Below, piece after piece: positions 8,401 to 64,000 of a DNA stretch of 64,000 nt. The notes under the pieces are model-generated. The model saw only the letters and a program-made list of their open reading frames with translations. It searched no databases and was not told the DNA's origin. The stretch's first letter is position 1, and the number at the start of each line of letters is the position of its first letter. The position numbers and the translations under genes were made by a program. Origin of the DNA: Cyanophora paradoxa CCMP329. Taxonomy: Eukaryota; Plantae; Glaucophyta. The DNA is taken from assembly GCA_004431415.1 (NCBI GenBank), contig QPMI01000626.1, positions 248,001 through 312,000 of the forward strand, in the 5' to 3' direction.

Positions 8401-9341
8401 CGCTGCACGCCTCCGAGTGCAAACGAGCGAGCACCGGCGGAGATGCAAACGCTCCGCTTGCCTCTGCTAATCGAAGCTGGCTCTGCCGCAGCGACGTTTA
8501 AGGGCGGGCGATCCACGGCGACCGCTGCGGCGATAAGTTGGTGGCCTTCGGCCAAAAGTTCGGCGCAAGCCGTTGTGGCTTGAGCTGTGCTTGAGCCACG
8601 ATCGAAGCTTGATGGGCTCTGTTGAGCTTGAGCTAGAGCTCAACGAGCTTGCTGTTAGTTCCGAGTTGATCGATAGTCCTGTACCCCTCTTTCGCGATCG
8701 ATTTCCGCGCTCCTCTCCTGGCGCGTGGGGGCGACTTTGATGATGTTGCGCATCAACTAAATCCTCATTGGACTCGCGAACATTGATATCGGAGTCCCCC
8801 GCTCTTCTGTATTGAGCGTTGTGCTGAGCGACACATTCGCGATCAGATGGTTCTTAGTGATCATGCTGTTTTTGAAGCCGGAATCGCATTTCGACGGCGT
8901 GTTTTCAACTTTTGAGAATATGGTCTGGAGATATGAGTCTTCTCCGCCTTTTTAGCGCCTTTGCAGGGCGTGCGATACGTTCTTTGTGCAGCGAGACGTA
9001 CGAACAGAACTTTGTATGAGAGCCAGGAACTTGGAATCAATTAACGGCTTGCGCCGAAAATCACGTCGCACCCCGGCCCGGCTCTTTCCCCCCTCCTGAT
9101 TTTGACCGGGCCTCGCTCCTGGGCCTCCCGGCCGCGCTGCGGGCGCGCGCGCCCGCTCGCGCAGCTCCCAACGCTCTCAGATGCGCTTCCCTCGGCCTTG
9201 TGCAGCTGCGCGCTCGGCCGCGGCGCTTCGCGCGCTCCTGTCAACCCGCTCTCCAAACGTTACCAATGCAAATCGGAGCCTTCGAGGCGCGAGTCCCTAC
9301 ACTGGCCAGTTCCTACGAGGCGACTCGTGAGCCGTACGCGC

Positions 9342-44237: not shown

Positions 44238-47200
44238 CTGGCAATGCATCGCAGCTGCAGTCGCACGACGTGTAGGCAACTGGATGCATAATTATATAAT
44301 GCACATGTACAATCGATATCGGCCGCGGGGTCAAAATGGATCCGGAAGGGGACCCGGGAACGTCGACGGAGGAGAAGAGGGAGCCGGGGGGAAGGCCCAG
44401 GTCTAGAGGGATATACGTGGATCTAGATCTAGGGGCAGCCTGGCAGCGCGGCCCGGCAGCGGGGCAGCTCTTCAATTCGGGTCGGCTTGCGGTGCCGAAG
44501 CTTATAATTATCAAGGTGCATGGGAGACCTGGCCATGGTGACCACAGACCTGGTCATGGTGACCACAATGAACCCTTCTTGAAACGACTGGATCCACTTT
44601 ATTCTTGCAATTGACGTCGACCGTGCACCTGATGCTCGAATTACAAGACCGGTACACTTCTTGATATCGAAAACGTCGATAACGTCCGACGGTCGTTGTT
44701 CGGAACACCAAAACCACGCAATCATCGAATGGTTCTAGATTTAACGATGGCAACGTCCTTGCTGTTTCGCTGAAGAGAATCTATAGATAGGCTTGCAAAA
44801 GCTTTCGTCCTGAAGAATCGGCGACTACAAATTATAAGCCCCGCCAGCATGCACAGCTCTATATATATTGCAAGGGGGGAATTCGAAGGGGGCCCCCTTG
44901 CTTCCCGTTCCCTCGCTTCAGCCAAAAGTTTTCTACGAGGCCGTTTTCGAGGGCCAGTCTGCAACGAAAATGTGGGCCAGTCTGCAACGAAAATGTCTTT
45001 TATTCGCGTTCGGATTGGCTCGGTGGACCGGTCAGCTCTCGACTTTCGAGCGTCGAATTCGAGGGGAAAAAGTGGTTTTCGAGGGGAAAACTAACTTCTC
45101 TCTCTAACTCCGGTCTTCGAATTCCTTGCGCGGTTCTGCATGGAACCAGTTCTCCCTAGCTGTCTCCTCTAGACTTCGGCTTCCTCGCAGTGCGTCGCGT
45201 ACGCCTTGCTCTTCGTTGCGCGGTTCTGCATGGAACCACTTCTCTCTACCTGTCAACGTCTCCTCTACTAGGCTAGATTTCCGCCTAGAAACTGCTTGCG
45301 TTGCTGCCTGCGCCGCTGCAGCTGATCGCAGCCGAGCACGCCCGGCCGGCCAGATCTAGACCGTACTCTCTCGCTGCGCTTATATCGAGCTTATATCGAG
45401 CTTATATTGCAGAACCGCGTGTGCCGGCCGAGCACGCCGGCCGGGCCGGGCGCTCGGCGCTCTTGTTGCGATCGGCACCCGGACAGCAGACTAGCTATAT
45501 ATAGTTCGTGTGCTGCGCACGACGTGGCGCTTGTCCGCTCATTCGGCACCCCGCGTGCGCCCTGTGTTGCGCCGCGTGCACGTGCGTGCGCCCCCGCCGC
45601 TTGCCACCCGCTGAATCTGGCCTTTCATTCAGGCTTTTCTTTATTCGGTTAGATCGCAGCGTCTGCTTATCAGCCCTTTTCTATTCTTTTCAATCATATA
45701 TAATCTGTGTCTATCTTTACTACTTCAACCTGCCGCGCGCGCTGGGCCGGGGTCGATCTACATCTGCCCCGTGCATGTTCGTGCCACTACTACTCTTTCA
45801 TTAGATCCCGATCCCCCCCTTGCACCCCCGGCGCGCCAAACGCGGCCGGGCCCCTAGTATGCGAACCGTTCGTGCCTCTCTGGTGCGAGCTCGAGGTGGC
45901 ATTAAGTTACGGAACTGGGGGGCGGATCGAAGGCCGATGCATGCGCACATCGATCATCGGATATATATCGATATGATATCGCTCTCGAAAATTCGAGCTC
46001 GAGTCTCTATACCGAGCACTCGAGTATAAGTACTTCTGCAATTTACCCCCAAAATGGAAAAGTTGGCGTCGCGCACATGCATGCCAGCTTTCCCGTAATA
46101 TCGCTATCATCATCCGTTCGGCGGGTATCTCTCGCAAGAGCTCGCTAGCTTACGGCTGTGGCCAGCGCAAGATATCTTGCATTAAGTACGACTGCATGCG
46201 TCGACAAAATTGAAACGGCAATTGCGAATGTCTGACCGTCGGACGTCGACGTCGACGTCTACCTCGGACACAGCTTAAAGCTGACACATGATTCTAAGCA
46301 CAGATCTCGGCGTCCACGGCGTAGCATTCGGCCTCGAGCACCTGCATACGATGCGAAGTCCGTGTGCAATGGAGAGCATGATCAGCTCAAATTAAAGTGA
46401 ACCCGAACTCGGCAAATTGGGCGGGCATGCAGAGCGCACCGCAGCCTCAGCCTCCAGCTCGGCGTCGAGCTCCGCGGCGTCCATCTCGGCTTCAACAATC
46501 TGTTCGCGATCGTGTGCATATTAGTTCTCAGAGCCTTGTACGCCGTGACGATACTACATTATATCAATTAACTAATCGGCGCAGGCGCGGCCTTAGCGCT
46601 AGCGGGCAAAGATCCAGCTTTGTCTGATTAAGTTTTGCTGTGATATCGATCACGATGAAGTGCGCACCTGGGCCTCGGCGTCAAGCAAATAACCCATCAG
46701 AGAGTACGTGGGAGATGAATCGATCGGGAACGCATTCGGAAAGTTCGTGCAATCTTGGCCATACGACATTGACTTCCCGCCGGTGGCCTTGCACATCTCA
46801 CCAGCCAGTTCAGTCGCGTCGGTGTTGATTTCCCAGAGGACAGTTTGGACCGTCGACGGCGCAGCGCCGCAAGAGCCATAACTGTAACACTTGACCTCTG
46901 ATTCGGAGATATATAGTGATCATGAGTGATCAATCTGCGAAGAGATGCAAATTTAAACTGAAAACGACGCACTCCCTCCAACATTGCCCATGTTGTCAGA
47001 GTACGATCTGCATGCATGCGCATGAGCGAAAACCATCATGGCATTAATATTATAGAGATTGAATGCATAGTTCCATAGTATTAGTATGCATACTACGGTA
47101 CGTTAACATAAGGTATGTTACACGTTCCTTGTGAACGTTCAATTAATATTGCAACGCGAACGCATACGTTTAGCGCGCGAAGCGATCTATAGCTAGTGAT

Positions 47201-48124
47201 CGCGCGTTAGCGGTCGACGTCCTAAGCTTGACGGCGTCCGCGAATATCGATATCTCAGCTTATAATTGCGATACGCCGCGGCGCTAATTATATAAGGGTG
47301 TCCGACGGTCGTCGGATATCGATGCGCCAAGGATCGGAGCTCACCGTGCGGGTAGAGGCGATCGAGATGAAGAGACCGGCGAGAATCGCGCCGATCAGAG
47401 CTAGACAGAGGCGAACTTGAAACTGCGGCAAGCTTTAAGAAGCTGTCGCACACTGCGGCAGCAATGAAGATCGCAACGCGAATCGAAACCGTGGCTTTTT
47501 TCCTGCTGGCTCCTGAGAGGCGCCGGCGCCGGCGCGCGCGCGGTGCCGGCGCCTGCGCCTTCGGGGCCCGGGCGGCTCGAAAAAGCTCGAAAAGGCCGCG
47601 GCTGCAGCTGATCATGAAGCCTGAACCGAGGCTGAACCTTAGTCATGAATCAGGCTGCTGTGCCAGCCACTGCCAGGCTGCCAGCTCAGCGGCTGCAGGC
47701 TGCAGGCTGCAGCTGGCAGCCTGCAGGCGTGTCGGCCCACTGTCGGGTAGACGGTAAAAAAAGAGATGTGGAAGAACTCCGCAGCTTTTTTTCGCCTGGC
47801 TCCTGAGAGGTGCTGCCGGCGCCGGCTGGCTCGAAACGGTCGACGGCGCACCGGTTCGTGAAACGTTTCCCTTCAAATGAAATGGAGCTAACCAATAGAC
47901 TGCAAGCTTCATCAATTCCTGGGACACTACTCGGAAGCCAATGACTTGGCAATAGGTACCAGCTATAGCTTTGTTTTTGACGTAATATGCTAGGCTATTG
48001 GCTCGCTCTGCTCTGCTCTTTATGCCCCCTGGGCAGCCCCCGCAGTGCTGGTGTCTAGAGATCTAGACTGTGGCCGGTAATTCACCAAAAAAATATAACT
48101 TATTACTGATGACACAAGCGGACT
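44238..48124 (+). repeat. Left arm of a long inverted repeat, including an arm-specific segment of about 1.37 kb (44,650-46,020)
   Basis: Reverse complement of 49018-51434; mirror-image ORFs (46397+/50439-, 47643-/49145+). Confidence 0.95.
48014..48093 (+). mobile_element. Second, shorter copy of the poly(A)-tailed retroposon
   Basis: cagtgctgg..ctgtggccggtaattcacc followed by A7; absent from the opposite inverted-repeat arm. Confidence 0.65.
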
Positions 48125-48183
48125 ATTCGAAAAAAAATGGTTAATTATAACACGGCCGGCTGAGCTTGCAGTTCTGATTCAGG

Positions 48184-48467
48184 TCGTTTTCCCCATGCGC
48201 GGCGACTTGGAATTCGGTAATTAGCTAGGTAATTCGGGGTCTTTCGTCGACGAGGGGAGGGGTACAGTCTTTAAACTAGTCCGGACAGCCCGAGCTAATT
48301 AGCCGGAACTCGAGGAGGTCCGGGGCCGTCCGGCCCGACCTCCTCGAATTCCAAGCTAATTAGATTTTTACCGGTTCGAGGATCGTCCGCAAAAAAAGGT
48401 GCGTGTTCGACCTAATTACCTAATTACCTAATTCCCGACTACGGCAAGTCCTACATGGGGAAAACGA
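48184..48467. repeat. Quasi-palindromic foldback/MITE-like element, about 285 bp
   Basis: Perfect 14-bp terminal IR tcgttttccccatg/catggggaaaacga; inner taattag/ctaatta symmetry; central hairpin at about 48296-48363. Confidence 0.65.
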
Positions 48468-49017
48468 GGTCAGTTCCCCGATTTGTCTCAACGCATATGA
48501 GAACACAAGCCTGAAGGTGGCCATGGATCCCGGAGAGCATACCGTAGTAACCGGTATGCCGCTGTTAACGTTGTCACGGCGTGGCAGGGCGTGCGGCGCG
48601 AGCCGCGCGACTCGCGGCGCGCGCGGCGCGCGCGCCGGCGGTACGGTGGCGCGCGGACCCGGACCGTCGGACTACCGTAAAACTTGAAACACATAAACAC
48701 CGCGCCCACTTCATTACCGCGGTACCAAAATTACCGCGCCAAAAGTTTGTAAAAACGCGGTAATAATTTATAATTTGGTACCGCGGAAATTACAGCGCTC
48801 CGCGGCAAAGTCTTATTAAATTTTCAAGCTACCAACCCGGCCAAATCCTGGCCATGGGATTCCTAATTATTTTGGGGTCTTAAATAAAACCCGATATAGA
48901 AGAAATGTACAGCCTGGCAGGCCTAGGCCTAGCCTAATAACTCTATAGGCCGGACTCCGGCGCCATGCCTCAGAATCTGGCTCAGATGCCGCCCATAATA
49001 GAGTCCCATTGCTTGCA

Positions 49018-51434
49018 AGTCCGCTTGTGTCATAAGTAATAGGTTATAACTTAGTATTGAGCAGAGCGAGCCAATAGCCTAGCATATTACGTCAAAAACA
49101 AAGCTATAGCTGGTACCTATTGCCAAGTCATTGGCTTCCGAGTAGTGTCCCAGGAATTGATGAAGCTTGCAGTCTATTGGTTAGCTCCATTTCATTTGAA
49201 GGGAAACGTTTCACGAACCGGTGCGCCGTCGACCGTTTCGAGCCAGCCGGCGCCGGCAGCACCTCTCAGGAGCCAGGCGAAAAAAAGCTGCGGAGTTCTT
49301 CCACATCTCTTTTTTTACCGTCTACCCGACAGTGGGCCGACACGCCTGCAGGCTGCCAGCTGCAGCCTGCAGCCTGCAGCCGCTGAGCTGGCAGCCTGGC
49401 AGTGGCTGGCACAGCAGCCTGATTCATGACTAAGGTTCAGCCTCGGTTCAGGCTTCATGATCAGCTGCAGCCGCGGCCTTTTCGAGCTTTTTCGAGCCGC
49501 CCGGGCCCCGAAGGCGCCGGCGCCGGCACCGCGCGCGCGCCGGCGCCGGCGCCTCTCAGGAGCCAGCAGGAAAAAAGCCACGGTTTCGATTCGCGTTGCG
49601 ATCTTCATTGCTGCCGCAGTGTGCGACAGCTTCTTAAAGCTTGCCGCAGTTTCAAGTTCGCCTCTGTCTAGCTCTGATCGGCGCGATTCTCGCCGGTCTC
49701 TTCATCTCGATCGCCTCTACCCGCACGGTGAGCTCCGATCCTTGGCGCATCGATATCCGACGACCGTCGGACACCCTTATATAATTAGCGCCGCGGCGTA
49801 TCGCAATTATAAGCTGAGATATCGATATTCGCGGACGCCGTCAAGCTTAGGACGTCGACCGCTAACGCGCGATCACTAGCTATAGATCGCTTCGCGCGCT
49901 AAACGTATGCGTTCGCGTTGCAATTGAACGTTCACAAGGAACGTGTAACATACCTTATGTTAACGTACCGTAGTATGCATACTAATACTATGGAACTATG
50001 CATTCAATCTCTATAATATTAATGCCATGATGGTTTTCGCTCATGCGCATGCATGCAGATCGTACTCTGACAACATGGGCAATGTTGGAGGGAGTGCGTC
50101 GTTTTCAGTTTAAATGTGCATCTCTTCGCAGATTGATCACTCATGATCACTATATATCTCCGAATCAGAGGTCAAGTGTTACAGTTATGGCTCTTGCGGC
50201 GCTGCGCCGTCGACGGTCCAAACTGTCCTCTGGGAAGTCAACACCGACGCGACTGAACTGGCTGGTGAGATGTGCAAGGCCACCGGCGGGAAGTCAATGT
50301 CGTATGGCCAAGATTGCACGAACTTTCCGAATGCGTTCCCGATCGATTCATCTCCCACGTACTCTCTGATGGGTTATTTGCTTGACGCCGAGGCCCAGGT
50401 GCGCACTTCATCGTGATCGATATCACAGCAAAACTTAATCAGACAAAGCTGGATCTTTGCCCGCTAGCGCTAAGGCCGCGCCTGCGCCGATTAGTTAATT
50501 GATATAATGTAGTATCGTCACGGCGTACAAGGCTCTGAGAACTAATATGCACACGATCGCGAACAGATTGTTGAAGCCGAGATGGACGCCGCGGAGCTCG
50601 ACGCCGAGCTGGAGGCTGAGGCTGCGGTGCGCTCTGCATGCCCGCCCAATTTGCCGAGTTCGGGTTCACTTTAATTTGAGCTGATCATGCTCTCCATTGC
50701 ACACGGACTTCGCATCGTATGCAGGTGCTCGAGGCCGAATGCTACGCCGTGGACGCCGAGATCTGTGCTTAGAATCATGTGTCAGCTTTAAGCTGTGTCC
50801 GAGGTAGACGTCGACGTCGACGTCCGACGGTCAGACATTCGCAATTGCCGTTTGTCGACGCATGCAGTCGTACTTAATGCAAGATATCTTGCGCTGGCCA
50901 CAGCCGTAAGCTAGCGAGCTCTTGCGAGAGATACCCGCCGAACGGATGATGATAGCGATATTACGGGAAAGCTGGCATGCATGTGCGCGACGCCAACGTT
51001 TCCCTTTTGGGGGTAAATTGCAGAAGTACGTATACTCGCGATCGGTCTTGGAATTTGAGCATCAGGTGCACGGGCGATTGCAAGATCAAAGTGGATCCAG
51101 TCGTTTCAAGAAGGGTTCATTGTGGTCACCATGACCAGGTCTGTGGTCACCATGGCCAGGTCTCCCATGCACCTTGATAATTATAAGCTTCGGCACCGCA
51201 AGCCGACCCGAATTGAAGAGCTGCCCCGCTGCCGGGCCGCACTGCCCCTAGATCTAGATCCACGTATATCCCTCTAGACCTGGGCCTTCCCCCCGGCTCC
51301 CTCTTCTCCTCCGTCGACGTTCCCGGGTCCCCTTCCGGATCCATTTTGACCCCGCGGCCTATATCGATTGTACATGTGCATTATGCATCCAGTTGCCTAC
51401 ACGTCGTGCGACTGCAGCTGCGATGCATTGCCAG
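49018..51434 (-). repeat. Right arm of the long inverted repeat
   Basis: Matches 46020-48124 and 44238-44650 in reverse complement. Confidence 0.95.
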
Positions 51435-53234: not shown

Positions 53235-53600
53235 GGGGGTGAGCCCCACCAATTGTGCGACCTTCCCGCGACCATTTTCAATAAGCACATTTTCAGCATC
53301 ACGAATCTCAGTCACAAAATCACAAATTCGCACTGAGCCACACTGTATTTTTCAAACATCTAACCCCTCCTTACTGAAACCAATCACAAAAACCTACATA
53401 TAATCTTTTCTCTAATTCCTTACCATTCCCAGTAAGCCCTTAAACCCTCCCTCGATTTCTCAGTAAGGACAGTAAGACCCCTATTTTTACGAAATGTTCC
53501 CGATCGTTTCCGGACTGTTTTCAGTTAGCCAAATTGAAAAATCAAGGTGAGCCCCACCAATTAAACAAGTGATCCCCACTTAAAGACTTCCCGATAATAT
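53235..53600. repeat. Putative left terminal (TIR) region
   Basis: Non-coding; starts GGGGGTGAGCCCC (hairpin); ggtgagccccaccaatt recurs at about 53546; cagtaag x3. The partner end is not in the window. Confidence 0.5.
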
Positions 53601-53609
53601 ACTGTAACA

Positions 53610-53933
53610 ATGGCAAGCGATCAAGTAACTCTACCTGAGAGTAAGCAATGCAATGTATGCAACAAGGTAAAACCGGCATCGAGTTATACATTGCAAAAGG
53701 GTAGCTCAGGAAGTATACTTTTGAATTGGAGATGCAAAGTCTGCGAACGTGACTATCGCAATTACCTTTATCATTTCGTGTTAAAAACGCGTCCGAAGAT
53801 CGAAGTACAATCGAAGATATGCTCGCACTGCAAGATTGAGAAGCCTGCAAGCGAGTATAATAAAAAACAAAGCACAAAGGATGGTCTCTACTATCAATGC
53901 CGAGAATGTTATAGTAAAACTCGTAAGAGTTAA
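53610..53933 (+). CDS. Tandem CxxC zinc-finger protein (type often attached to viral endonucleases)
   Basis: KQCNVCNKVKP..CKVC and KICSHCKIEKPASEY..DGLYYQCREC. Confidence 0.75.
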   Translation: MASDQVTLPESKQCNVCNKVKPASSYTLQKGSSGSILLNWRCKVCERDYRNYLYHFVLKTRPKIEVQSKICSHCKIEKPASEYNKKQSTKDGLYYQCRECYSKTRKS

Positions 53934-54173
53934 AACCGAATTTCATTTTATATTTTTTAAAGCGAGTTTGTGCATGAGCAAGCATGCCGAAAATGCCCAC
54001 CTGCACAAACTTGCGCACCCCATCGACAAAGTACGATGATCGACGAAGTACGACGATAGACCACGTTAAAATAAACTCGCGCCCCGCCCACTATGCAAGA
54101 TACATGCGAACAACATGCATGATCTATGAAAAATGATAAAATGAACAGGGTAAAAATATCGACTTAAATAATA

Positions 54174-54566
54174 ATGGATTCCCGATACCGCGGCTACCAC
54201 GTCATGCTTGACTATATAACCGACCCGTTCACCGAGTCCCCGGAGGCATGCGCCGAGTGGATCACAGCGAACCTGTCGCAATATATAACAGATCGCCAGA
54301 TGCGCATCGTGCACCAGCACACCTGCATTTTCGATGGCTCTAATTCCCCTCCCGGTTTCGCGATTGGCTTTCTATTAGATGAGTCGCATGCCACAGCTCA
54401 CTCTTATAGCGACCAGGGGCTATTAGCGATCGATATCTTTACATGCGGCTCAAATGCCGAAGCGAAGACAATGGGTATAGCACAGGACATTAACGATCTC
54501 ATACAGGAAAGGCTGAAAGTTCGAAAGTGGGACTTACAGGTCGAGCAAAGGTTCCCAATTTCATAA
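54174..54566 (+). CDS. speD: S-adenosylmethionine decarboxylase proenzyme (short prokaryotic/viral class)
   Basis: GYHVMLD, F..PPGFAIGFLLDESHATAHSY (ESH autocleavage site), LAIDIFTCG; 130 aa. Confidence 0.9.
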   Translation: MDSRYRGYHVMLDYITDPFTESPEACAEWITANLSQYITDRQMRIVHQHTCIFDGSNSPPGFAIGFLLDESHATAHSYSDQGLLAIDIFTCGSNAEAKTMGIAQDINDLIQERLKVRKWDLQVEQRFPIS

Positions 54567-54591
54567 AAAATGAAAAAAGCGACATATACAT

Positions 54592-54906
54592 TTAATGTTC
54601 CTTGATCGGAAACTTGCCCATTAGTGGGTGATCGAGACCCATAACATACCAGGATTTCATAACGGGATCCCAGCGGGCTTTCTCAGCCTTCGCTTGATCC
54701 TTAAATTCATAAGGAATATCGAGGTAAAGCTTCACGTTTCTTTGATACACTTGCTCATAGCTTAGAGTTTTGAACTGAGAGCATAGGGGGTGATCTTTCT
54801 TCATGACATACCAGCATGAATTCTCACGATCCCACTTTCCACCGAGGGATTTCGCAACGTCTTTTTTATCAAACGGAATATCAACATAATACTTTTCACC
54901 CTCCAT
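54592..54906 (-). CDS. Tandem DUF5710 domain protein
   Basis: YVDIPFDKKDVAKSLGGKWD..WYV and YLDIPYEFKDQAKAEKARWD..WYV. Confidence 0.8.
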   Translation of the reverse strand: MEGEKYYVDIPFDKKDVAKSLGGKWDRENSCWYVMKKDHPLCSQFKTLSYEQVYQRNVKLYLDIPYEFKDQAKAEKARWDPVMKSWYVMGLDHPLMGKFPIKEH

Positions 54907-54919
54907 CTCTTTTATATTT

Positions 54920-54939
54920 ACCGGAGAAAATAATTTCGG
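54920..54939 (-). promoter_or_regulatory. Conserved viral upstream motif (sense CCGAAATTATTTTCTCCGGT)
   Basis: 20-mer identical to 60680-60699; ends 14 nt upstream of the ATG at 54906. Confidence 0.7.
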
Positions 54940-54945
54940 GGTTTG

Positions 54946-56328
54946 TTATGAACGAGAAGACCGAAGAATGCGCGTAGTAGGGGCTGTGTAGCTTGCGCTC
55001 TGATTCTTGAATGATTTATACCACCGCTGACTGTTTACCTCTGAGAGCTTCTCAGTTCCCGCGATCGTTAATTTAGCGAGCTCTCTCAGCGCCCTCTTTG
55101 TCTTTTCTGCGCGATCTTCCAATAATGCGCCTTTTGGAACACTTGCGGCGACATCTATGCCTTCTTTTTGAACCTGCCGGATAGAAGCGGCTTCTATTTC
55201 GGCTGCTTTGATTGCGTTGCCTGATGGCTCCACCACAGCTTCGACCTCTGTAATGATTTGCAATTCGTGCGGCTTAAAAAGCTTCGGCATTACGTTCCCC
55301 GCTGCATCTTGCACCTCTATTGCGTTTCCCCTCCTTCCCACTATTTTGTAGACCTCTCTGCTATACCTTTGGGTCGCGCCTTTATCGAACTTCGATCTCG
55401 GCAATAATAGGCGGACGTGGAGACCCGGCTTAAAGTCGCTGAATATATCCTTTACGATTGTGTTCTTTCTCGAAATAATAGCCGCTCGGATCTGCTCCAT
55501 ATCTGAGAGCTTTACATCCCCCGGTTTCATTCCTATGGTTCTGTGAATGGTGTTATTGTAATTGAAAACGAAGTCGTCCAATTTATCCATAAACCGCACT
55601 GTATTATAGGCGACACAGTAATTGTTTATCATCGTTTTTAGGGTCAAATGAAAGCGATTCATAATTCCCAGCGAAGTGTGATCTCCGACCTGTTTAAAGC
55701 GGTGTTCTATTCCGTTATTTTTAACGATCTCCTGAAACTCCTTTGCGATGAATTCTGAGCCGTTATCTGTCTCTAAACGCTTCATTGGAGCCGGGAGCTC
55801 TGTGAGCATCTCCGCAAAAGCGGCGGCAACACTTGCGCCCTCCTTATTCTTTAACTTCTTGGCATATGCTTTTCGGCTTGTCATCTCGATGAGAGTAAGG
55901 ACTGCAATGTAGCCGGAATTATAATTGCCATATGAGAGATAAAAGATGAGATCTGCTTGGTAGCACCACGGCGGGGCTGTGATGGGAATAAAAGCGGTTT
56001 GGGTCGGTGCGGGGGGCTTCTTGTTGATCTGCATAAATTCTTGTTTCGCTGCGACATCTTGCACTTCTTTCAATGTGAGGCTCTTGTCCTCTTTTCTCAG
56101 CTCTTCGTACAATGCCGATGGGTTCTTAAAACCTGTCTTCGGGTCATACATGCGTCGCACGATCTTAGAGGACGGGTTAGCAATGCTAAAAGGAACATCT
56201 CCTAATAAATTTGATTTTGCTTGGCGTTTTGTGATTTTTTGGGGGATTAGCTCAGTTTCAGGAACCGCGATAGGTAGTATGGTGGTCTCTGTCTCCTCTC
56301 CCGCTACCCTTCTAACGATCCGTGACAT
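54946..56328 (-). CDS. Polinton/virophage-type retroviral-like (rve) integrase
   Basis: YDPKTGF..LY, YQADLI, LETDNGSEF, GIMNRFHLTLK, YNNTIHRTIGMKP, FKPGLHVR..FDKG..YSREVYKI. Confidence 0.92.
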   Translation of the reverse strand: MSRIVRRVAGEETETTILPIAVPETELIPQKITKRQAKSNLLGDVPFSIANPSSKIVRRMYDPKTGFKNPSALYEELRKEDKSLTLKEVQDVAAKQEFMQINKKPPAPTQTAFIPITAPPWCYQADLIFYLSYGNYNSGYIAVLTLIEMTSRKAYAKKLKNKEGASVAAAFAEMLTELPAPMKRLETDNGSEFIAKEFQEIVKNNGIEHRFKQVGDHTSLGIMNRFHLTLKTMINNYCVAYNTVRFMDKLDDFVFNYNNTIHRTIGMKPGDVKLSDMEQIRAAIISRKNTIVKDIFSDFKPGLHVRLLLPRSKFDKGATQRYSREVYKIVGRRGNAIEVQDAAGNVMPKLFKPHELQIITEVEAVVEPSGNAIKAAEIEAASIRQVQKEGIDVAASVPKGALLEDRAEKTKRALRELAKLTIAGTEKLSEVNSQRWYKSFKNQSASYTAPTTRILRSSRS

Positions 56329-56347
56329 TTCTTCTAATTAAACCTGT

Positions 56348-57850
56348 TTATTTTTTGCTGCAATTGCACCCGTGATGCGCGAGTTGACAATTGTCTTTAA
56401 GGTGTGGGCGCTTATTATTGATGCGATCCACGACGAGCCTGTAATTCGGATCTTGCGGCTCAATCGGAATCGGAAGGGAACAGAGCGCACAGGCGCCCTT
56501 CTGTTGCTTCTTGCGCTCTAATATCCACTCCGGCGTAATATAATCCGCCTCGTTGAAATCGCGACCGGCACGCTGATCCTGGCATTTATAACCGCGGATC
56601 TTCGTTTTCAGATATTCGATGTAGTCGCTCTTTCCTTGGAACTTGTGAATAGGTGTATAAATCAGCACCGTAGACAGATCGCGGTTACGAGTGAGCGCGG
56701 TATAGAACCATTCGCGAGTGGTATAGCGGAACGTAGCCTCACAAATGACAATGCCCGAATCAAGTGTGAGACCTTGCGTTGAATGACCTGTTCCTGCATA
56801 AGGGAGAGAAAAATGTTCTAACATCGCGCACGGAACCTCGAACGTGACGCCATCGAAGACGTCAGTTAATGTGACCATTTGCTTGGTGATTTTGGTGATC
56901 CGATAGGTGTAATTTGTGTATGCGTTAATAGACTCACCCTCAGACCGCGAAATGCGTAGATACCTGCGACAAACGACCTCCAAACCCTTGTAGAATTTGA
57001 TGCCGTTGACCTCTACGGTTGCAATATTTACTTTTCGTCTATCGTGCATCAGTTTGTTATAGGCTAAGGTCATTTCGTTTCTGTAAGCGATGCCAAAGTA
57101 GCCGTCGGGAATGGCGCTTAGATCATTAATTGTCGGCAACCCGTATTTCGAGATAATCTGTGAGGCTTCGAGTCCGTTTTCGAAGAGATCCTCTTTAATC
57201 GCCCGAATTAATTCACGGTCTGTCTCCTTCTTGTGCCGCTTGTTTATGCGTAGACTCAGGACATTAGGGAACATGCTCTGCACAGCGCGCTTATAGTAGC
57301 CCTTGCGATCAGAAACCGAGAGCTCGTCATTAATTGGTTCGTTCTGATAGGTATCGCCATTAGCCAAATATTTGATATCCGGATAGCGGTCTATGAAAGT
57401 CTTGATCTTAGCGAGATCCTTTACGGAATACGCGAATATCTCGTCGAACATTATATGGCTGAACTCGGAGACGAACGCCCTCTGGTCTTTTTCGCTCATA
57501 GCCTCTTCGTAGGTCTGATCATTTGAGACACGGATCCCGAGAACATTATATAAAGTACGAACGGTAATATTCTCGATTCCGCGGACTTTGAGAGAGTCCC
57601 TCAGCTCCGCGCACTGTTTGTTATAGGGGCAAATAACTAAGCAATTCGACTTTTGAGATGCGAAACAGTTAATACCGAGTGTCGACTTTCCACTTCCGGG
57701 CATGTCAGCAAGGACAAGCATACGATTATGGAGCTTCGCAACCCAATTAAAGCACTCCGGATTAAATTCGTCCCTCAGCGAGAACCGGTTAATGAGTGTC
57801 TCGGGATCCTGAAATTCGAGAGTTACACCCGTGGTGGGCGGAGTGCATTC
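56348..57850 (-). CDS. Superfamily 1 (RecD/Pif1-like) helicase with C-terminal HNH endonuclease; frame open to 57850, first ATG at 57721
   Basis: Walker A DMPGSGKS, Walker B MFDEIF, GDTYQNEPI, YAGTGHSTQGLT, YTALTR; CALC..VDRINNKRPHLKDNCQLAHHGCNCSK. Confidence 0.9.
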   Translation of the reverse strand, partial: ECTPPTTGVTLEFQDPETLINRFSLRDEFNPECFNWVAKLHNRMLVLADMPGSGKSTLGINCFASQKSNCLVICPYNKQCAELRDSLKVRGIENITVRTLYNVLGIRVSNDQTYEEAMSEKDQRAFVSEFSHIMFDEIFAYSVKDLAKIKTFIDRYPDIKYLANGDTYQNEPINDELSVSDRKGYYKRAVQSMFPNVLSLRINKRHKKETDRELIRAIKEDLFENGLEASQIISKYGLPTINDLSAIPDGYFGIAYRNEMTLAYNKLMHDRRKVNIATVEVNGIKFYKGLEVVCRRYLRISRSEGESINAYTNYTYRITKITKQMVTLTDVFDGVTFEVPCAMLEHFSLPYAGTGHSTQGLTLDSGIVICEATFRYTTREWFYTALTRNRDLSTVLIYTPIHKFQGKSDYIEYLKTKIRGYKCQDQRAGRDFNEADYITPEWILERKKQQKGACALCSLPIPIEPQDPNYRLVVDRINNKRPHLKDNCQLAHHGCNCSKK

Positions 57851-60657
57851 TCAGGGCATCTTTTCCCGGGAATATAGCTGAATTTGCCCATGTTCTCAAA
57901 CGCATTTCGGTCGAACTCTTTCTTACTTGTCCATGAACCTTCGATATATAGGCAATCCGTTCTGATCCCGGCAACCTTGTGCCCGCGCGCTGTCAGGCGC
58001 TTGTATTGCGCAAACATATTGGCACGGTTGCGATCGTAAATATGAAAGTGGATAGGAAGGAATCCGTTAACGAGCTCGCGGTGGGAGCTGATCTTAACGA
58101 AATAGATGTGACCTTCGAATTCGCTAAGAGTTTTGACACGTTTCGAATTCTTAGGATTGAAAGTAAACACCTCTACTGTTCCTCCGCATTCTTGGGCGAA
58201 CCTCTCAGCCTCGGCACGGTTGTAGAACATTTTCGTGGATGTTTGCGAGTCTTGGAATTTGCCGAGCATTCCGATCTCTTTCACTAAAATGTGCTTCTTA
58301 TCTGTGGTTTGAATGTCACTTGAAAGTACTTTCTTCATCTCCGAGATCGACGTATTGGGCACCAAATGCGAAGGCTCCGCGACCGCGATAATCTCTATCT
58401 TGTCCTTTACGTCCGCCCAATGCATGGAGAGAGTGTAGCCTGTCATGAAATTATAACAGCGACCACTCACGGAAAATGCGCGATCCAGAATAATTTCGAT
58501 TCCATCAATCTTGCGAGACATGGCGGCATCATAATCTACATCCTCATCATCGGCGAAAGTCGCTTGCTCTCTCTCAAACGCAACAACACGCACGTAGTAG
58601 ATCGCGTATTCGAGAATATCGCTTCCCGCTTTAAAGGGAACGAAGTCATCGAATACATTGTATTTCGGAAGATATTGCATGCCTTTTAGAATCGAAGGGT
58701 AGCACTTCGCCATATCGACAGCTGTGTAGGTGGCTTTCGGGTTCGGCTTATAGAAAAAGCCGCTTAGTGCGGATCGCTTGTAGTGCGTGAGAATTTCGCG
58801 CATGTTCGGGCTGTAATGTGAGATATTCGTCGCATTTAGTAGCGACTCGCGGAACCCCTTACCGATTTCACAGACCTTATTATAATACTCCTCTGTTTCG
58901 AAATCTTGCTCAATAAAGTGGTCGGTTGTGCGTGGATCTTTGATAGAGAACATCGAGCCATTAGCTTTGAATGTGATGCTGTCGATTTGTTTCGATGGTG
59001 TTAGCTTCACTGCGGGCTCATATCGCATTTTCAGGAACGTAAATAGAAGACCTTCCAGACCTTCGCGCCCAGTATAAAGAATGCGGATGAAACTGCGCTC
59101 GTCGGGCGATAGTTTTAGTTGCGTGATCTTTAACAAATCCTTGGATGTGTGCGCGAAGATATCGTGAGTAAGACACGTCGGAATTTTATAGAGTGCTAAC
59201 GAAGAGGTCGACTTAGGAACATGATTATCGAGCTCTTCGACCTCCATCTTTGCCATGCGCATTTCGAGCGACTTGATGTTATCGTTGAATATATAGATAT
59301 GCTTGTTGTGAATCATAAAGTGAATATTGCGGGGATTGATATTTTTGTTAATTGATTCTGCCGCGAATTTGTATACTAACTTACCGTCGACATCAAAGAC
59401 GCGGAAGCCTGTCTGAATTCTCTTACAGAATTTCTCGATGTGGCGGAGGGTGAGAGCCAGAGAGTCGCCAGGTGTGCGTTCGTGACCGTGAAAGAATTTA
59501 TAGAGACCGTCGTAGGACATAGTTAAGTCAGTATATCGCGGTTTTGGCGCCTCCTGACACTTCTTAATGGACGCTCCCCATGTGGAGATGATCATATCGT
59601 AGCCGCAAGCGTTAGATGTCGATGATTTGGGAAGCTCAATAATATCTTCGAACTCAGACGCGTTTGGATTTAATGTGTAGTCTGTGAATTTGCTCATAAT
59701 CGCGGTGCATCGCATGCTGTCCATTAGCTCCTCATCCAGAAACGCATAGCGATTTCCAGGGATAGCACCGGCTCCGTCATCTTCGACACCTTCGTCCCCA
59801 TCGATCACGACCTCATGAACAGTTATAAAGGCATCATCGACACTGCCGCCAAAATCATTAAACATAAGGCGTAGTCTTTTCTGTTCATCGGTTGGTGGTG
59901 TCTTAAAGAAGAACACCTCGTATGCTTGTCCGAACGTTTCGAGATATATAGTCAATTCATCGTAGTTTTCGAGTAAACGGAAGATTGATTTTCTCTCTTC
60001 CGAATAATAACGATTTTGAGCGGTGAGAACTCCATACCGTTTATCGATTTTTGCCAGAGCAAAGTTTCGCAACACCCTCACCGAAACTGTCTCTCTTATA
60101 TTGCGGTAGGTGACAAAGGTTTTGTCTTTTATACGTGTTCCGGGAATTCCGGGAATAACAATTACCTCCGACGACCGAGCACCGGATCCAGGTCCCCATA
60201 GCTTGAACGTAATTGTTGCGAGAGTTTCCGGATCGTATGCGGCGATTGGATCGAGAATAGTGCGTTTAATCGCATCCTCTACCGATTTTACTTTACCTCT
60301 CTGCTGCTTCGCTTCGAGTTTCGCTTCTTTCGCTCGTTTCTGTTCTTGCTTGCGATCGAAGCGCTGTAAACGCTTAGCCTCTTGTTCTTTTTGCTTCTGC
60401 TTTTCTATATTAACTTGGGTGCGAGCGGCGCGCTTTTCTTTCCGCTCTGCCCTGCGGAAAACGCGGGGATTAATGATTCCATTCAGAGTATCCCGAATGT
60501 CTATCAGCGTTTGGAGCTTGGGCTTCCGATTCATTGTGTTGTGCATCGCCCAATGCGCCTGTTCTTCGGTTAGCAAATCCTGACTCAATCCCTGCATAAT
60601 GTATCCGATAATTTCATCCCGAACATTGTTAGCGATTCTGTTGGTTGCGCGCGGCAT
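57823..60657 (-). CDS. polB: Divergent family B (protein-primed type) DNA polymerase with N-terminal putative terminal-protein and vOTU protease regions
   Basis: Motif A AVDMAKCYPS, motif B KHILVKEIGMLGK, motif C GIRTDCLY; upstream NACGYDMI..RVFD..IHFMIHNKHIY (Cys/His pair). Confidence 0.78.
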   Translation of the reverse strand: MPRATNRIANNVRDEIIGYIMQGLSQDLLTEEQAHWAMHNTMNRKPKLQTLIDIRDTLNGIINPRVFRRAERKEKRAARTQVNIEKQKQKEQEAKRLQRFDRKQEQKRAKEAKLEAKQQRGKVKSVEDAIKRTILDPIAAYDPETLATITFKLWGPGSGARSSEVIVIPGIPGTRIKDKTFVTYRNIRETVSVRVLRNFALAKIDKRYGVLTAQNRYYSEERKSIFRLLENYDELTIYLETFGQAYEVFFFKTPPTDEQKRLRLMFNDFGGSVDDAFITVHEVVIDGDEGVEDDGAGAIPGNRYAFLDEELMDSMRCTAIMSKFTDYTLNPNASEFEDIIELPKSSTSNACGYDMIISTWGASIKKCQEAPKPRYTDLTMSYDGLYKFFHGHERTPGDSLALTLRHIEKFCKRIQTGFRVFDVDGKLVYKFAAESINKNINPRNIHFMIHNKHIYIFNDNIKSLEMRMAKMEVEELDNHVPKSTSSLALYKIPTCLTHDIFAHTSKDLLKITQLKLSPDERSFIRILYTGREGLEGLLFTFLKMRYEPAVKLTPSKQIDSITFKANGSMFSIKDPRTTDHFIEQDFETEEYYNKVCEIGKGFRESLLNATNISHYSPNMREILTHYKRSALSGFFYKPNPKATYTAVDMAKCYPSILKGMQYLPKYNVFDDFVPFKAGSDILEYAIYYVRVVAFEREQATFADDEDVDYDAAMSRKIDGIEIILDRAFSVSGRCYNFMTGYTLSMHWADVKDKIEIIAVAEPSHLVPNTSISEMKKVLSSDIQTTDKKHILVKEIGMLGKFQDSQTSTKMFYNRAEAERFAQECGGTVEVFTFNPKNSKRVKTLSEFEGHIYFVKISSHRELVNGFLPIHFHIYDRNRANMFAQYKRLTARGHKVAGIRTDCLYIEGSWTSKKEFDRNAFENMGKFSYIPGKRCPENALRPPRV

Positions 60658-60679
60658 CTCTATTAGTTCTTTTAAAATA

Positions 60680-60699
60680 ACCGGAGAAAATAATTTCGG
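60680..60699 (-). promoter_or_regulatory. Conserved viral upstream motif
   Basis: Same 20-mer, about 23 nt upstream of the polB ATG. Confidence 0.7.
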
Positions 60700-60825
60700 C
60701 GCAATCTACCAAATTCTCCTTTTCATACCCTTGTCGCCAATTCTTTAAGTGCTTTTTGACCGATACGGGGAATAAAAAGGGAGGTAAAAAATTAATCATT
60801 TTTTGCATCGTGCGGATACTTTCCG

Positions 60826-61239
60826 CTACGGATTTTTCGCGTTCTCGACAACATGCTTTCGGGGTCTCCCAGCGGGCTTTTGCGGCTGGGGCTTTACCGG
60901 CGGATTCAGCTTTCGTTCCGCTCTCTTTCTGCGTTGGTATTCCCTTGCCTTCTCTCGGATTTTCTCCCGATACTCTTCATCGTCTTGGTATCGCTGCTGT
61001 TTACGAATTGCAATCTTTTGTAGCTGTTCCGGGGTGAATATCGTAGCCTCTCCGGCGGCTAATCGCTCCTGTTTTTGTCTCTGATGCTTGTTTCGCTGCC
61101 GCTCGGCGTCTTTTTCGCGTTTTAATCTTAATCTCTCCGCCTTCTCCTCTTCTGTGATCACCTTTTTCGGTCGCCCGGGTCTGCGCTTTTCCTGCTGTGC
61201 CGCCATCGCCTCTTGGTTTGAAATCTTGGGTTTCGCCAT
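60826..61239 (-). CDS. Small basic protein with two AT-hook-like motifs
   Basis: KRRPGRPKK and AGRPRK flank a Lys/Arg/Glu-rich helix; upstream motif present. Confidence 0.7.
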   Translation of the reverse strand: MAKPKISNQEAMAAQQEKRRPGRPKKVITEEEKAERLRLKREKDAERQRNKHQRQKQERLAAGEATIFTPEQLQKIAIRKQQRYQDDEEYREKIREKAREYQRRKRAERKLNPPVKPQPQKPAGRPRKHVVENAKNP

Positions 61240-61247
61240 TTACTATA

Positions 61248-61260
61248 ACCGGAGAAAATA
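61248..61260 (-). promoter_or_regulatory. Conserved viral upstream motif (core TATTTTCTCCGGT)
   Basis: About 9 nt upstream of the ATG at 61239. Confidence 0.65.
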
Positions 61261-61363
61261 GTTTTTTGTCACTCTGTATTATTTCCCTTGCCCTTAAATA
61301 CCTTTTACCGAAACCTTCAATTTTTGCCCTTGGCTCGATACAAGCGCCACCGAAATTCACCGC

Positions 61364-61780
61364 TCAATAACCATTCCAGACGGTTCTTTCTTGTTGCTGA
61401 GGATATACATAAGGGTTTGTTAAGCTGTCATCGTCGCCTAATGCCATTTGATCCAATCTATACATCGGATAAGGGGAGTCAGCGCGCAAATGACCTTCTA
61501 CAAACTCAGGACATGAGCGCCTTCTAATATGCTCTACATGCACGTCCTCTATCTGAGCGGTTTCGATATTGGAACTCATAGCCGCGGTCACAGGCGAGGG
61601 CGATCGAGATCGTGGGTGGTTGTGATTGTCGCTGTGGTTAGAATATACAGAAAGGCGCCTACCTCCATTATCCTCGCCATCTGATATTTCGATTTCTACG
61701 GTTGTGTCACAGCATGGACTGTGGCAATTAGACACGACGTGAAGCTGAAACATCTCAATGCATTGTGTGATGAAATTCAT
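61364..61780 (-). CDS. Viral hypothetical protein
   Basis: 138-aa ATG ORF preceded by the conserved motif. Confidence 0.55.
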   Translation of the reverse strand: MNFITQCIEMFQLHVVSNCHSPCCDTTVEIEISDGEDNGGRRLSVYSNHSDNHNHPRSRSPSPVTAAMSSNIETAQIEDVHVEHIRRRSCPEFVEGHLRADSPYPMYRLDQMALGDDDSLTNPYVYPQQQERTVWNGY

Positions 61781-61810
61781 CGACCCTACAAATGGGCAAC
61801 GTATTAAATA

Positions 61811-61823
61811 TCGGAGAAAATAA
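61811..61823 (-). promoter_or_regulatory. Conserved viral upstream motif variant (TTATTTTCTCCGA)
   Basis: About 31 nt upstream of the ATG at 61780, between divergent ORFs. Confidence 0.6.
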
Positions 61824-61829
61824 AAGGGA

Positions 61830-62147
61830 ATGAGGGCTTTACTTGCTCGTGTGTTTCCTTATGAGTTGGTCGACCTTATAATGCTGTTTATGGAGCCGAC
61901 ATGCCCGTTTTGCAAGGGCGTTCATAGCGCTTGCGCGAGGCAAGCTTGCGTGCCGCTTAGACCCGCTCTAAATACGGGCGGGTTCAGCTTTGCCTTGCGG
62001 ATATTCACAGTCATTAGCGGATATGGCGTTTACCACCGAGCATTGCGGCATAATTCACGGGTGCGGTCGGCACAATATGTGCATATTGCGGGGCGACCGA
62101 TTGCTGACGAGTTACGGCTTGCGCATCTGTCTTTTCCTCCTTTTTAA
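61830..62147 (+). CDS. Viral hypothetical protein, possible F-box-like N-terminus and CxxC
   Basis: LLARVFPYELVDLIMLF, CPFCKGVH; 3' end overlaps the opposite-strand ORF. Confidence 0.4.
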   Translation: MRALLARVFPYELVDLIMLFMEPTCPFCKGVHSACARQACVPLRPALNTGGFSFALRIFTVISGYGVYHRALRHNSRVRSAQYVHIAGRPIADELRLAHLSFPPF

Positions 62148-62697
62148 TCTCCTCTACGTCGACCTTTTGCTTTAATCCGAGCTTTGAGATCTCTTTCTTT
62201 ACGAGCCCCTTTAATTTCTTGCGTTCGTTATAATCTTGCATCCATTTCTCGTAGTTAGAGACTTTCATTTCAAGGTCTCGCACTTTCTCTTCAAAGCTCA
62301 TGACAACGTCGACAGGAACCGTGTGTTTTTGATAGGATCCGCGCTTTTTAAGCTCAGTTTCGGCGGCTTTTGGGACGTCTTGCGTTTTGTGCTGGCTTGC
62401 GACAACTTGCGCTTTTAGTACTTTGTCGGTTGCTTCATCGATGGAGCCGCCTCCAATCTGTGGTTTTACAGTAGCTAAATCGTCCATTTGGCGTTTACCG
62501 CTATCTTGGTTTCCCTTGTCCGCGGTGGCACTCGCAATAATCGCCTCTTGCTTGGCGACCTCTTCTGGCGAAGTGTCTATAAGATATTCGGGCATTTCGA
62601 GACCGCCGCCCGACGTTAATCCAGACTCTTCAAGTCCGCGATTAGGATTACCAGAAGCGACCGTTTGAATGGTTTGAGGCTTCTTTCGGTAGACCAT
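62014..62697 (-). CDS. Viral hypothetical coiled-coil protein
   Basis: 227-aa ORF starting immediately after the ATPase stop codon. Confidence 0.7.
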   Translation of the reverse strand: MVYRKKPQTIQTVASGNPNRGLEESGLTSGGGLEMPEYLIDTSPEEVAKQEAIIASATADKGNQDSGKRQMDDLATVKPQIGGGSIDEATDKVLKAQVVASQHKTQDVPKAAETELKKRGSYQKHTVPVDVVMSFEEKVRDLEMKVSNYEKWMQDYNERKKLKGLVKKEISKLGLKQKVDVEEIKKEEKTDAQAVTRQQSVAPQYAHIVPTAPVNYAAMLGGKRHIR

Positions 62698-62699
62698 GA

Positions 62700-63566
62700 T
62701 TATCTTTTCTTACACTTGATTAACATTTTCTTTTTCTTGGGCGAAATTTGCGAAAGTTTGGGGATACCTTCAAGCTCACGCTCAAATTTGGATAAAGTTT
62801 TGCATACAGTTGTCGAATCTTTGACAGGCGGCGGTTTTGTAGCTTGCTCCTCTTGTTGTTTGCGCTTCTTTTCTTCAAAAGCCGCCCGCTTGTGGAATTT
62901 CGTAAACGGATGGTCATCGATCATATCGGCTTTTTCGACCCACCATCGCACAGAATACCCGGTATTATCGTGAATGATCGCTTGGTAGCTATGACAGAAT
63001 TCTTGGAACATGCGCTTAAAACTCTCTTTATCCATGTTCCCGAACTCTTCGTGATATGCTTCAAACTCTCGCATGTTTGACCAGCTTAGGAATATGATAT
63101 ACTCCGCATTGCTGCGAATGATCGTTGAAAGTTTTGTTAGTTTCTGCGATATTAAAGCCACGGAACAAAACGTATGACGACCTTGCGCCATCAATTTATT
63201 TAGCAAATGATCGCGCGAAAGATCGATAGTTCCGGACTCCAAACAATCGTCGAGTACGATGAGAATATTCTTTGGTTTCTTTCCAGCGATGATAGCTTTC
63301 TTGCGGGCTTCTATGATCGACTCTACATATTCCGGTTTCCAGGTATCATGCACTTCGTCTGTTATTTGACCCCAGAAACCGTTAAAACTCGTAGGACAGA
63401 AAACCAGAACATACGAGATCTGGTCTTCGAGTTCTTTGATCAGCCACTTTAAGAATACCGATTTACCACAATTGGTTTTCGCCAATAGGAGAAATCGTGC
63501 GGGAAGTTTCACCCTTTGTTTCGGGTTCCATTCTTCGAGATCCATGGGCGTCGTCCCTTTTTGCAT
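62700..63566 (-). CDS. A32/FtsK-HerA genome-packaging ATPase
   Basis: LLAKTNCGKS (Walker A), ILIVLDDC (Walker B), QGRH, LISQ, IIRSNAEY; likely ATG at 63566. Confidence 0.93.
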   Translation of the reverse strand: MQKGTTPMDLEEWNPKQRVKLPARFLLLAKTNCGKSVFLKWLIKELEDQISYVLVFCPTSFNGFWGQITDEVHDTWKPEYVESIIEARKKAIIAGKKPKNILIVLDDCLESGTIDLSRDHLLNKLMAQGRHTFCSVALISQKLTKLSTIIRSNAEYIIFLSWSNMREFEAYHEEFGNMDKESFKRMFQEFCHSYQAIIHDNTGYSVRWWVEKADMIDDHPFTKFHKRAAFEEKKRKQQEEQATKPPPVKDSTTVCKTLSKFERELEGIPKLSQISPKKKKMLIKCKKR

Positions 63567-63624
63567 TCTTTCACTATAAAAACAATAGAAAAATAAGACT
63601 GAATGTGGTAATCGCACGAATTCC

Positions 63625-64000
63625 TCATGCTGATACTCTTCGGATTCCGTCGGCGGAAATTATCATTATGTTATGAGCGAGGGCAATGCACTGAATTTGC
63701 ATCTTCTGATACGCGGAGCCCGCATACCACTCCTCATTACCGACTCCACCGGCTGTGACACCATTGAATTCGAAGACCAGATCGAACGCCGATGTGCCTG
63801 TGGCATCGATGTAGCCCGTGTTCTCTTGGTTGAGAAGCGACGCCTTTCCGTTTCCAGCACCGAAGTAAATGCCAGTGAGAGCGGGGTAGCTTGTGCTCTC
63901 GGTAAAGATCGCCGAATTATATTTATCTTGAAGTTCGGTCGCGGCAATCATGAGAGGAAGCGAAGTATTCGAGTAAAGGCGGTTATTGTTGAGTTCCACA
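63625..64000 (-). CDS. C-terminal part of probable major capsid protein (double jelly-roll)
   Basis: Frame open to the window edge; beta-rich; ends ..IALAHNIMIISADGIRRVSA*, like PLV capsid C-termini; adjacent to the packaging ATPase. Confidence 0.55.
   Translation of the reverse strand, partial: VELNNNRLYSNTSLPLMIAATELQDKYNSAIFTESTSYPALTGIYFGAGNGKASLLNQENTGYIDATGTSAFDLVFEFNGVTAGGVGNEEWYAGSAYQKMQIQCIALAHNIMIISADGIRRVSA

What the first reader, a model, noticed from the sequence alone, without database searches (positions are those of the whole stretch)
56348..60657. Probable replicase polyprotein: vOTU protease - divergent PolB - SF1 helicase - HNH, joined through a -1 frame overlap
The helicase frame is open 43 codons upstream of its first ATG (to 57850) and overlaps the polB end by 28 nt in the -1 frame. 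That ATG sits right at the Walker A strand, too late for a natural start, and no upstream motif precedes it. PolB stops about 40 aa after motif C, has RTD for DTD and lacks recognisable exonuclease motifs. Inference: one fusion protein of about 1,430 aa, either broken by a 1-nt indel or expressed by recoding. The helicase may supply strand displacement and the vOTU-like Cys/His domain may release a terminal protein.
Basis: partly seen in the sequence, partly recalled or inferred. Interest (0 to 1): 0.8.

Follow-up and report, generated by a model that had tools for sequence, protein, structure and literature searches.

The report
Known viral replicase, one-base break
This is a known kind of all-in-one DNA-copying gene from a virus embedded in what is likely a protist genome; it looks split here only because this copy is one base shorter than in all seven sequencing runs that cover the spot, so programmed frameshifting is unlikely.

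Summary
The two frames and the 28-nt -1 overlap are real, but recoding is not supported. Of 8 public runs laid, 7 cover the junction. All 7 (6 samples) carry one more base in a short G run at 57828-57830, at full depth, which makes one continuous 1,436-codon gene. 134 of 150 homologues found with the polymerase half alone carry the helicase in the same chain. The overlap holds no canonical slippery heptamer. The architecture (N-terminal region, vOTU, pPolB palm, SF1 helicase, HNH) is the published Tlr1-like helicase / pPolB-S1H of polinton-like viruses (PMC5499653, PMC11161782). The xTD motif C and the missing exonuclease motifs are family traits: 0 of 142 homologues have DTD. The gene lies in a multicopy endogenous polinton-like virus with an rve integrase and an A32 ATPase. 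I could not separate assembly error from a deletion private to this copy. The scan met this family before on another genome (e1-7145383). Ordinary; low interest.

The parts
56348..60657 (-). pPolB-S1H-HNH replicase gene (Tlr1-like helicase), 1,436 codons when continuous; in this window split into ORF1 (944 aa) and ORF2 (500 aa)
57828..57830 (-). Break: homopolymer run one base shorter than in 7 of 7 covering runs
   Evidence: table 4 (one more C behind 57827 on the + strand; depth with the base equals total depth)
59758..60657 (-). N-terminal region, residues 1-300: helical part plus a low-confidence beta-rich middle part at the position of the terminal protein (role inferred from position only); poorly conserved
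   Evidence: PMC11161782 section 9
59263..59700 (-). vOTU-like cysteine protease domain, about residues 320-465, Cys351 and His453
   Evidence: Cys+His in 139 of 139 covering rows; OTU folds top both searches
58840..59172 (-). Probable vestigial exonuclease-fold remnant, about residues 496-606, with no invariant acidic residue
57862..58821 (-). Protein-primed-type PolB palm, about residues 613-932: motif A Asp648, motif B Lys788..Gly796 (usual Asn is Val792), motif C RTD901
56666..57772 (-). SF1B (Pif1/RecD/Dda-like) helicase, ORF2 residues about 27-395, Walker A GSGKS and Walker B DE
56351..56578 (-). C-terminal HNH-type zinc-finger nuclease domain (CxxC, DR, H, NC, HxxC)
   Evidence: weak PacI match, E 0.013
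60680..60692 (-). 13-nt motif upstream of the replicase ATG, shared with three other genes; likely promoter element
   Evidence: 4 matches against 0.12 expected
54946..56328 (-). rve integrase gene directly downstream
   Evidence: PF00665, E 5e-14
62700..63617 (-). [quoted passage not shown]
   Evidence: PF04665, E 1.6e-10

Best explanation
This is one ordinary pPolB-S1H-HNH replicase gene of an endogenous polinton-like virus, and the -1 overlap comes from a single base missing in this window's copy, likely an assembly slip or a private mutation rather than recoding. In intact copies one 1,436-aa polyprotein is predicted: the vOTU domain would cut off the N-terminal terminal-protein-like part, that part would prime synthesis at the genome ends, the palm would polymerise without proofreading, and the fused SF1B helicase would unwind ahead of it; the HNH domain is likely an acquired homing nuclease. 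If the deletion is real, this copy would make a 944-aa product without helicase and could not replicate unaided. Shown: the frames, the extra base in all covering runs, fused homologues, motifs. Predicted: folds. Inferred from the literature: cleavage, priming, activity.
For:: 7 of 7 covering runs have a single bridging contig with the extra base at full depth (2578, 75, 658, 1748, 2042, 3103, 214), with more than 150 letters on each side; 134 of 150 homologues of the polymerase half contain the helicase; 5 long homologues from the helicase side; the distance from motif C Asp to the Walker Lys is 90 in the read-through against a median of 92 (quartiles 88-99) in 135 fused homologues, so nothing else is missing; the conserved [DEN]E[WFYL] motif 29 residues before the Walker Lys (found 22-40 residues before it in 111 of 135 homologues, at exactly 29 in 74) lies upstream of Met44, and 0 of 21 close homologues have Met at that column; no canonical slippery heptamer among 12 in-frame positions; phi29 polymerase is the top fold (E 1.3e-6; Z 15.5, rmsd 4.9, 361 aligned); same architecture in print; frameshifts in assembled endogenous protist viruses are a documented artefact.
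Against: All runs are contigs, which drop rare variants, and the window's own reads were not available, so the window's state is neither confirmed nor excluded in any sample. 16 of 150 homologues lack a helicase match; several end shortly after motif C (P0038, P0075, P0090, P0115, P0138) and their DNA could not be inspected, so independent splits are not excluded. vOTU fold scores are weak (best Z 5.8; best E 0.012). Motif B Asn (125 of 142) is Val here and in the runs, so polymerase activity is not assured. No RNA or protein evidence was obtained.
Confidence: 0.95

Rival explanations
1. Sub-case A of the best explanation: the missing base is a sequencing or assembly error in a homopolymer, and this copy is intact in the cell.
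For: The difference is a 1-nt loss in a homopolymer, and no covering run shows the window state. Such artefacts are reported for multicopy protist viral elements. The integrase and ATPase frames are intact.
Against: The assembly looks otherwise accurate: the complete indel table has no other uncompensated coding indel at full depth across 44 further runs of 4 or more bases, and a 1,993-nt inverted repeat has 0 single-base gaps.
Confidence: 0.5
2. Sub-case B: the deletion is real but private to this integrated copy, which is an early pseudogene of an otherwise intact multicopy family.
For: The window also differs from all three covering runs at full depth by substitutions such as 56554, 57736, 58549, 58585 and 60502; three of these five are CpG-type transitions. 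Contigs drop one-copy variants.
Against: Those substitutions could be strain differences. All catalytic residues are intact and I found no other break in the genes examined.
Confidence: 0.45
3. Programmed -1 ribosomal frameshifting or transcriptional slippage yields both a polymerase-only and a fused product.
For: The geometry allows it (28-nt overlap), a G run could slip, and the 73 nt downstream can fold (-14.2 kcal/mol, no shuffle control).
Against: The split is absent from 7 of 7 covering runs of the same element family, there is no canonical heptamer, and 134 of 150 homologues are fused.
Confidence: 0.02
4. Two separate genes, or an intron (for example a 77-nt GTAAGA..AG stretch at 57926-57851) that restores the frame.
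For: ORF2 has its own ATG; frame-restoring GT/GC..AG pairs exist (18 found).
Against: Starting at Met44 would lose the conserved DE[WF] motif and part of the first strand. The 77-nt intron would delete conserved Gly924 and Gly931. The DNA runs already give a continuous frame.
Confidence: 0.03

Closest known systems
Tlr1-like helicases / pPolB-S1H fusion proteins of polinton-like viruses and transpovirons (PMC5499653; PMC11161782)
   Same: Order N-terminal/TP-position domain, vOTU with Cys and His, pPolB palm lacking the first Asp of motif C, SF1 helicase, C-terminal HNH; size near the published 1,000-1,400 aa; no exonuclease motifs.
   Different: This copy is broken by one base; motif B Asn is Val (10 of 142 homologues); a dead exonuclease-fold remnant seems present where the papers say the domain is lacking.
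Tetrahymena Tlr1 element
   Same: rve integrase, A32 ATPase and pPolB-S1H in a multicopy endogenous element.
   Different: Tlr1 ends in GIY-YIG, this protein in HNH as in other PLVs; host composition differs; capsid gene not reached in this window.
Mavirus-type palm-retaining truncated pPolB
   Same: [quoted passage not shown]
   Different: The mavirus helicase is an SF3 enzyme on a separate gene.
Oxyrrhis OmPLV helicase-pPolB fusion (PMC12721341)
   Same: SF1 helicase fused to pPolB; often fragmented in endogenous copies.
   Different: Opposite order (helicase first), complete exonuclease, no vOTU or TP found.

Membership tests
Tlr1-like helicase / pPolB-S1H | pPolB palm and SF1 helicase in one chain, helicase C-terminal | tested here: met
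   Continuous in 7 of 7 covering runs and in 134 of 150 homologues; split only in the window copy
Tlr1-like helicase / pPolB-S1H | Palm of the protein-primed type (closest to phi29-like pPolB) | tested here: met
   phi29 polymerase takes ranks 1-9 in Foldseek; Z 15.5 against 8.4 for the best other PolB
Tlr1-like helicase / pPolB-S1H | TPR1 and TPR2 subdomains delimited | tested here: inconclusive
   The phi29 alignment spans the region (model 496-940, chain 5-499) but no residue-level mapping was returned
Tlr1-like helicase / pPolB-S1H | Motifs A and B conserved, first Asp of motif C replaced | tested here: met
   Asp648, Gly796, Asp901 in 142 of 142, Lys788 in 141; position 900 is Thr in 133; no row has D at 899 together with T (2 D at 899; see report); motif B Asn is Val here
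Tlr1-like helicase / pPolB-S1H | vOTU domain with catalytic Cys and His before the palm | tested here: met
   Cys351 and His453 in 139 of 139 covering rows; model pLDDT 93.7; OTU-type proteases fill the top ranks, though Z is only 5.8
Tlr1-like helicase / pPolB-S1H | No functional exonuclease domain | tested here: met
   No acidic position above 74% conservation in residues 485-625; a fold remnant is likely
Tlr1-like helicase / pPolB-S1H | Alpha/beta middle domain at the terminal-protein position | tested here: inconclusive
   Beta strands are predicted at 146-210 and 279-286 but pLDDT is mostly 40-68
Tlr1-like helicase / pPolB-S1H | C-terminal HNH or GIY-YIG nuclease | tested here: met
   CxxC, R, H, N, C pattern in 18-20 of 21 homologues; PacI match E 0.013
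Polinton-like virus (Tlr1 type) | Packaging ATPase and integrase beside the replicase | tested here: met
   PF04665 and PF00665
Polinton-like virus (Tlr1 type) | Double jelly-roll capsid gene and terminal inverted repeats | not testable with these tools
   The element runs off the window at 64000 and no genome is held
Programmed -1 frameshift site | X XXY YYZ slippery heptamer in the overlap | tested here: not met
   0 of 12 in-frame heptamers
Programmed -1 frameshift site | Split conserved among copies and relatives | tested here: not met
   0 of 7 covering runs show the split

The most novel reading that the evidence does not exclude
Recoding is all but excluded (about 2%). The boldest reading left is that these pPolB-S1H replicases did not lose the exonuclease domain outright but keep a catalytically dead remnant of its fold between vOTU and palm as a structural part, and that in this high-copy family the terminal-protein-position domain diversifies quickly between copies while the core stays conserved, with a polymerase that tolerates Val in place of the motif B Asn.
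Probability: 0.4. Interest if true: 0.3.

Novelty: new member of a known kind. Interest (0 to 1): 0.12.

Why it matters
Little. It removes a false recoding candidate and adds one member to a described family. The family has been described by modelling only in the sections I read, so an intact, high-copy representative could serve to test whether pPolB-S1H palms are active and whether vOTU releases a terminal protein, but hundreds of homologues would serve equally (442 at E <= 0.001).

Tried and rejected
No whole genome is held, so other copies in the same assembly could not be read. The search for related loci found no relative in viral contigs (29 pattern matches, 0 confirmed) or metagenome contigs (25 matches, 0 confirmed); an alignment query was too divergent. 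No tblastn match in phage records. The protein Atlas was unavailable. No RNA holder listed; run X20 (RNA by guess) gave 4 short pieces, none over the junction. Pfam and NCBIfam do not recognise ORF1. No terminal-protein fold was listed for the low-confidence N-terminal region; that part was not folded alone, so this is no test. The intron and separate-start readings were rejected. A literature search for polinton plus ribosomal frameshift gave 6 papers, 5 listed, none on this by title (listing only). No earlier scan note matched by sequence. Internal repeats used as an error gauge were informative only for the near-identical inverted repeat.

Full report
Observation. The minus strand holds ORF1 (57823-60657, 944 aa) and ORF2 (56348-57850, 500 aa stop to stop, first Met at codon 44). 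They overlap by 28 nt in the -1 frame.

Context. G+C is 67% over 1-44,000 and 46% over 53,400-64,000. The low-G+C stretch encodes an rve integrase (54946-56328, E 5e-14) and an A32 packaging ATPase (62700-63617, E 1.6e-10) and runs off the window. The flank has frame-split host-like gene pieces (CobB-like; lipase-like). I infer a GC-rich unicellular eukaryote host and an endogenous polinton-like virus; the host group was not tested. 20 of 24 listed runs, all of one organism label, hold the stretch or a part of it. 253-336 contig pieces per DNA run lie on 4.45 kb, which indicates many related copies.

The junction. I laid 8 of the 24 listed runs. Seven cover the junction (X1, X2, X5, X6, X7, X14, X19): 6 samples, 5 named studies and two rows without a study; one may be the source. 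Each has a single bridging contig of 389-766 nt with one more C behind 57827 on the + strand, and the depth with the base equals the total depth. With that base the frames join into one gene of 1,436 codons. X20 did not cover the site. Caveats: these are contigs, which drop rare variants, and the window's own reads are not available. In one search, whose indel table is complete, this is the only uncompensated coding indel at full depth; 12 rows were shown and 44 were not.

Homologues. A search with ORF1 alone gave 442 proteins at E <= 0.001, of which the best 150 were listed. 134 of these 150 match the helicase frame in the same chain, and 114 reach the HNH end. Of the 16 without a match, most stop before or within the palm; five end shortly after motif C, and their DNA could not be inspected. 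A search with ORF2 for longer proteins gave 5 fusions of 1,164-1,440 aa. In an alignment of 142 homologues (139 of the 150, leaving out 11 that were mostly fragments, plus 3) the distance from motif C Asp to the Walker Lys is 90 in the read-through against a median of 92 in 135 fused rows. A conserved [DEN]E[WFYL] motif lies 22-40 residues before the Walker Lys in 111 of 135 rows, at exactly 29 in 74; the window has DEF at 29, upstream of Met44. The 43 codons before the ATG are therefore coding.

Recoding signals. None of 12 in-frame heptamers in or next to the overlap is canonical or relaxed-slippery. The GGGAAAA just upstream is out of register and is followed by a -1-frame stop. A 77-nt candidate intron would remove conserved Gly924 and Gly931.

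Domains. The AlphaFold model of ORF1 (63 rows, pLDDT 78.9) matches phi29 polymerase best (Foldseek E 1.3e-6; VIA Z 15.5, rmsd 4.9, 361 aligned), and protein-primed polymerases fill the top of the viral library. Asp648, Gly796 and Asp901 are invariant in 142 rows and Lys788 is in 141. Position 899, the first Asp of DTD, is K 75, N 35, H 14, R 8 and D in only 2; the summary's '0 of 142' should be read as at most 2 of 142, since I did not check whether those two rows also have Thr at 900. RTD is thus a family trait. Motif B Asn (125 of 142) is Val792 here, and bridging contigs show no difference there. Residues 305-480 folded alone (pLDDT 93.7) give OTU-type proteases in the listed Foldseek rows, all weak (best E 0.012), and at the top of the VIA list (best Z 5.8, rmsd 2.7, 96 aligned); Cys351 and His453 are in 139 of 139 covering rows. 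The helicase is SF1B-like (Pif1, Dda, RecD; E to 5e-20 with the family profile), with Walker motifs intact. The C-terminus has an HNH zinc-finger pattern. The phi29 alignment starts at model residue 496 and chain residue 5, so at least 50 aligned residues fall in the phi29 exonuclease domain (boundary near residue 190, recalled). No acidic residue there is conserved above 74%: a dead remnant is likely.

Mechanism. Inferred from PMC11161782: the polyprotein would cleave off its terminal-protein-like part by vOTU, prime at the genome ends, polymerise without proofreading and unwind with the fused helicase. None of these activities was tested here. Whether this copy is intact (assembly error, about 0.5) or an early pseudogene (about 0.45) is open. 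The assembly looks otherwise accurate, and the copy has apparently private substitutions, three of five in CpG context; neither decides it.

Literature seen. PMC11161782: abstract and introduction, passages, whole section on Tlr1-like helicases. It describes TP-vOTU-palm-S1H with HNH or GIY-YIG ends and predicts active palms despite the missing first Asp. PMC5499653: abstract and introduction, passages and the domain section. PMC10120064: passages and the section on degraded elements, which reports artefactual frameshifts in multicopy viral elements. PMC12721341, PMC13215967 and bioRxiv 2022.07.28.501842: passages only. I did not see figures or supplements; SI Figs S6-S7 of PMC11161782 may already show the exonuclease remnant or the middle-domain variants.

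Verdict. New member of a known family with a one-base break. Interest 0.12.

Noticed in passing
window 54920-54932, 60680-60692, 61248-61260, 61810-61822 (-): A 13-nt motif TATTTTCTCCGRT lies shortly upstream of four element genes (4 matches against 0.12 expected); likely promoter. It loosely resembles the TCCGGA upstream motif reported for Tetraselmis virus 1 (passage), a possible hint at a helper giant virus.
   Followed up: partly
window 6662-8639 (-): Pieces of a CobB-like cobyrinic acid a,c-diamide synthase in different frames, probably exons of a host gene (E about 1e-10); unusual for a eukaryote (recalled).
   Followed up: partly
window 44238-51434: Large nested inverted repeat with arms of about 2 kb at 99% identity, lower in G+C than the flank; another mobile element or an assembly fold-back.
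   Followed up: no
window 59850-60130 (ORF1 residues about 177-270): Differences between the window and the runs are mostly non-synonymous here and mostly synonymous in the core (only the 40 best-supported rows were shown).
   Followed up: partly
window 54174-54566 (+), 54592-54906 (-), 53610-53933 (+): Accessory genes of the element: S-adenosylmethionine decarboxylase-like (E 2e-11), tandem DUF5710 (E 9e-24) and a small Cys-rich protein.
   Followed up: no
window 12000-32500: Three diverged tandem copies of a unit of about 7.5 kb (87-97% identity).
   Followed up: no
window 39766-40837: Array of 51-nt and 122-nt repeats.
   Followed up: no
window 53238 and 53546: A 17-nt direct repeat near the left edge of the low-G+C stretch; the element's left end was not defined.
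   Followed up: no
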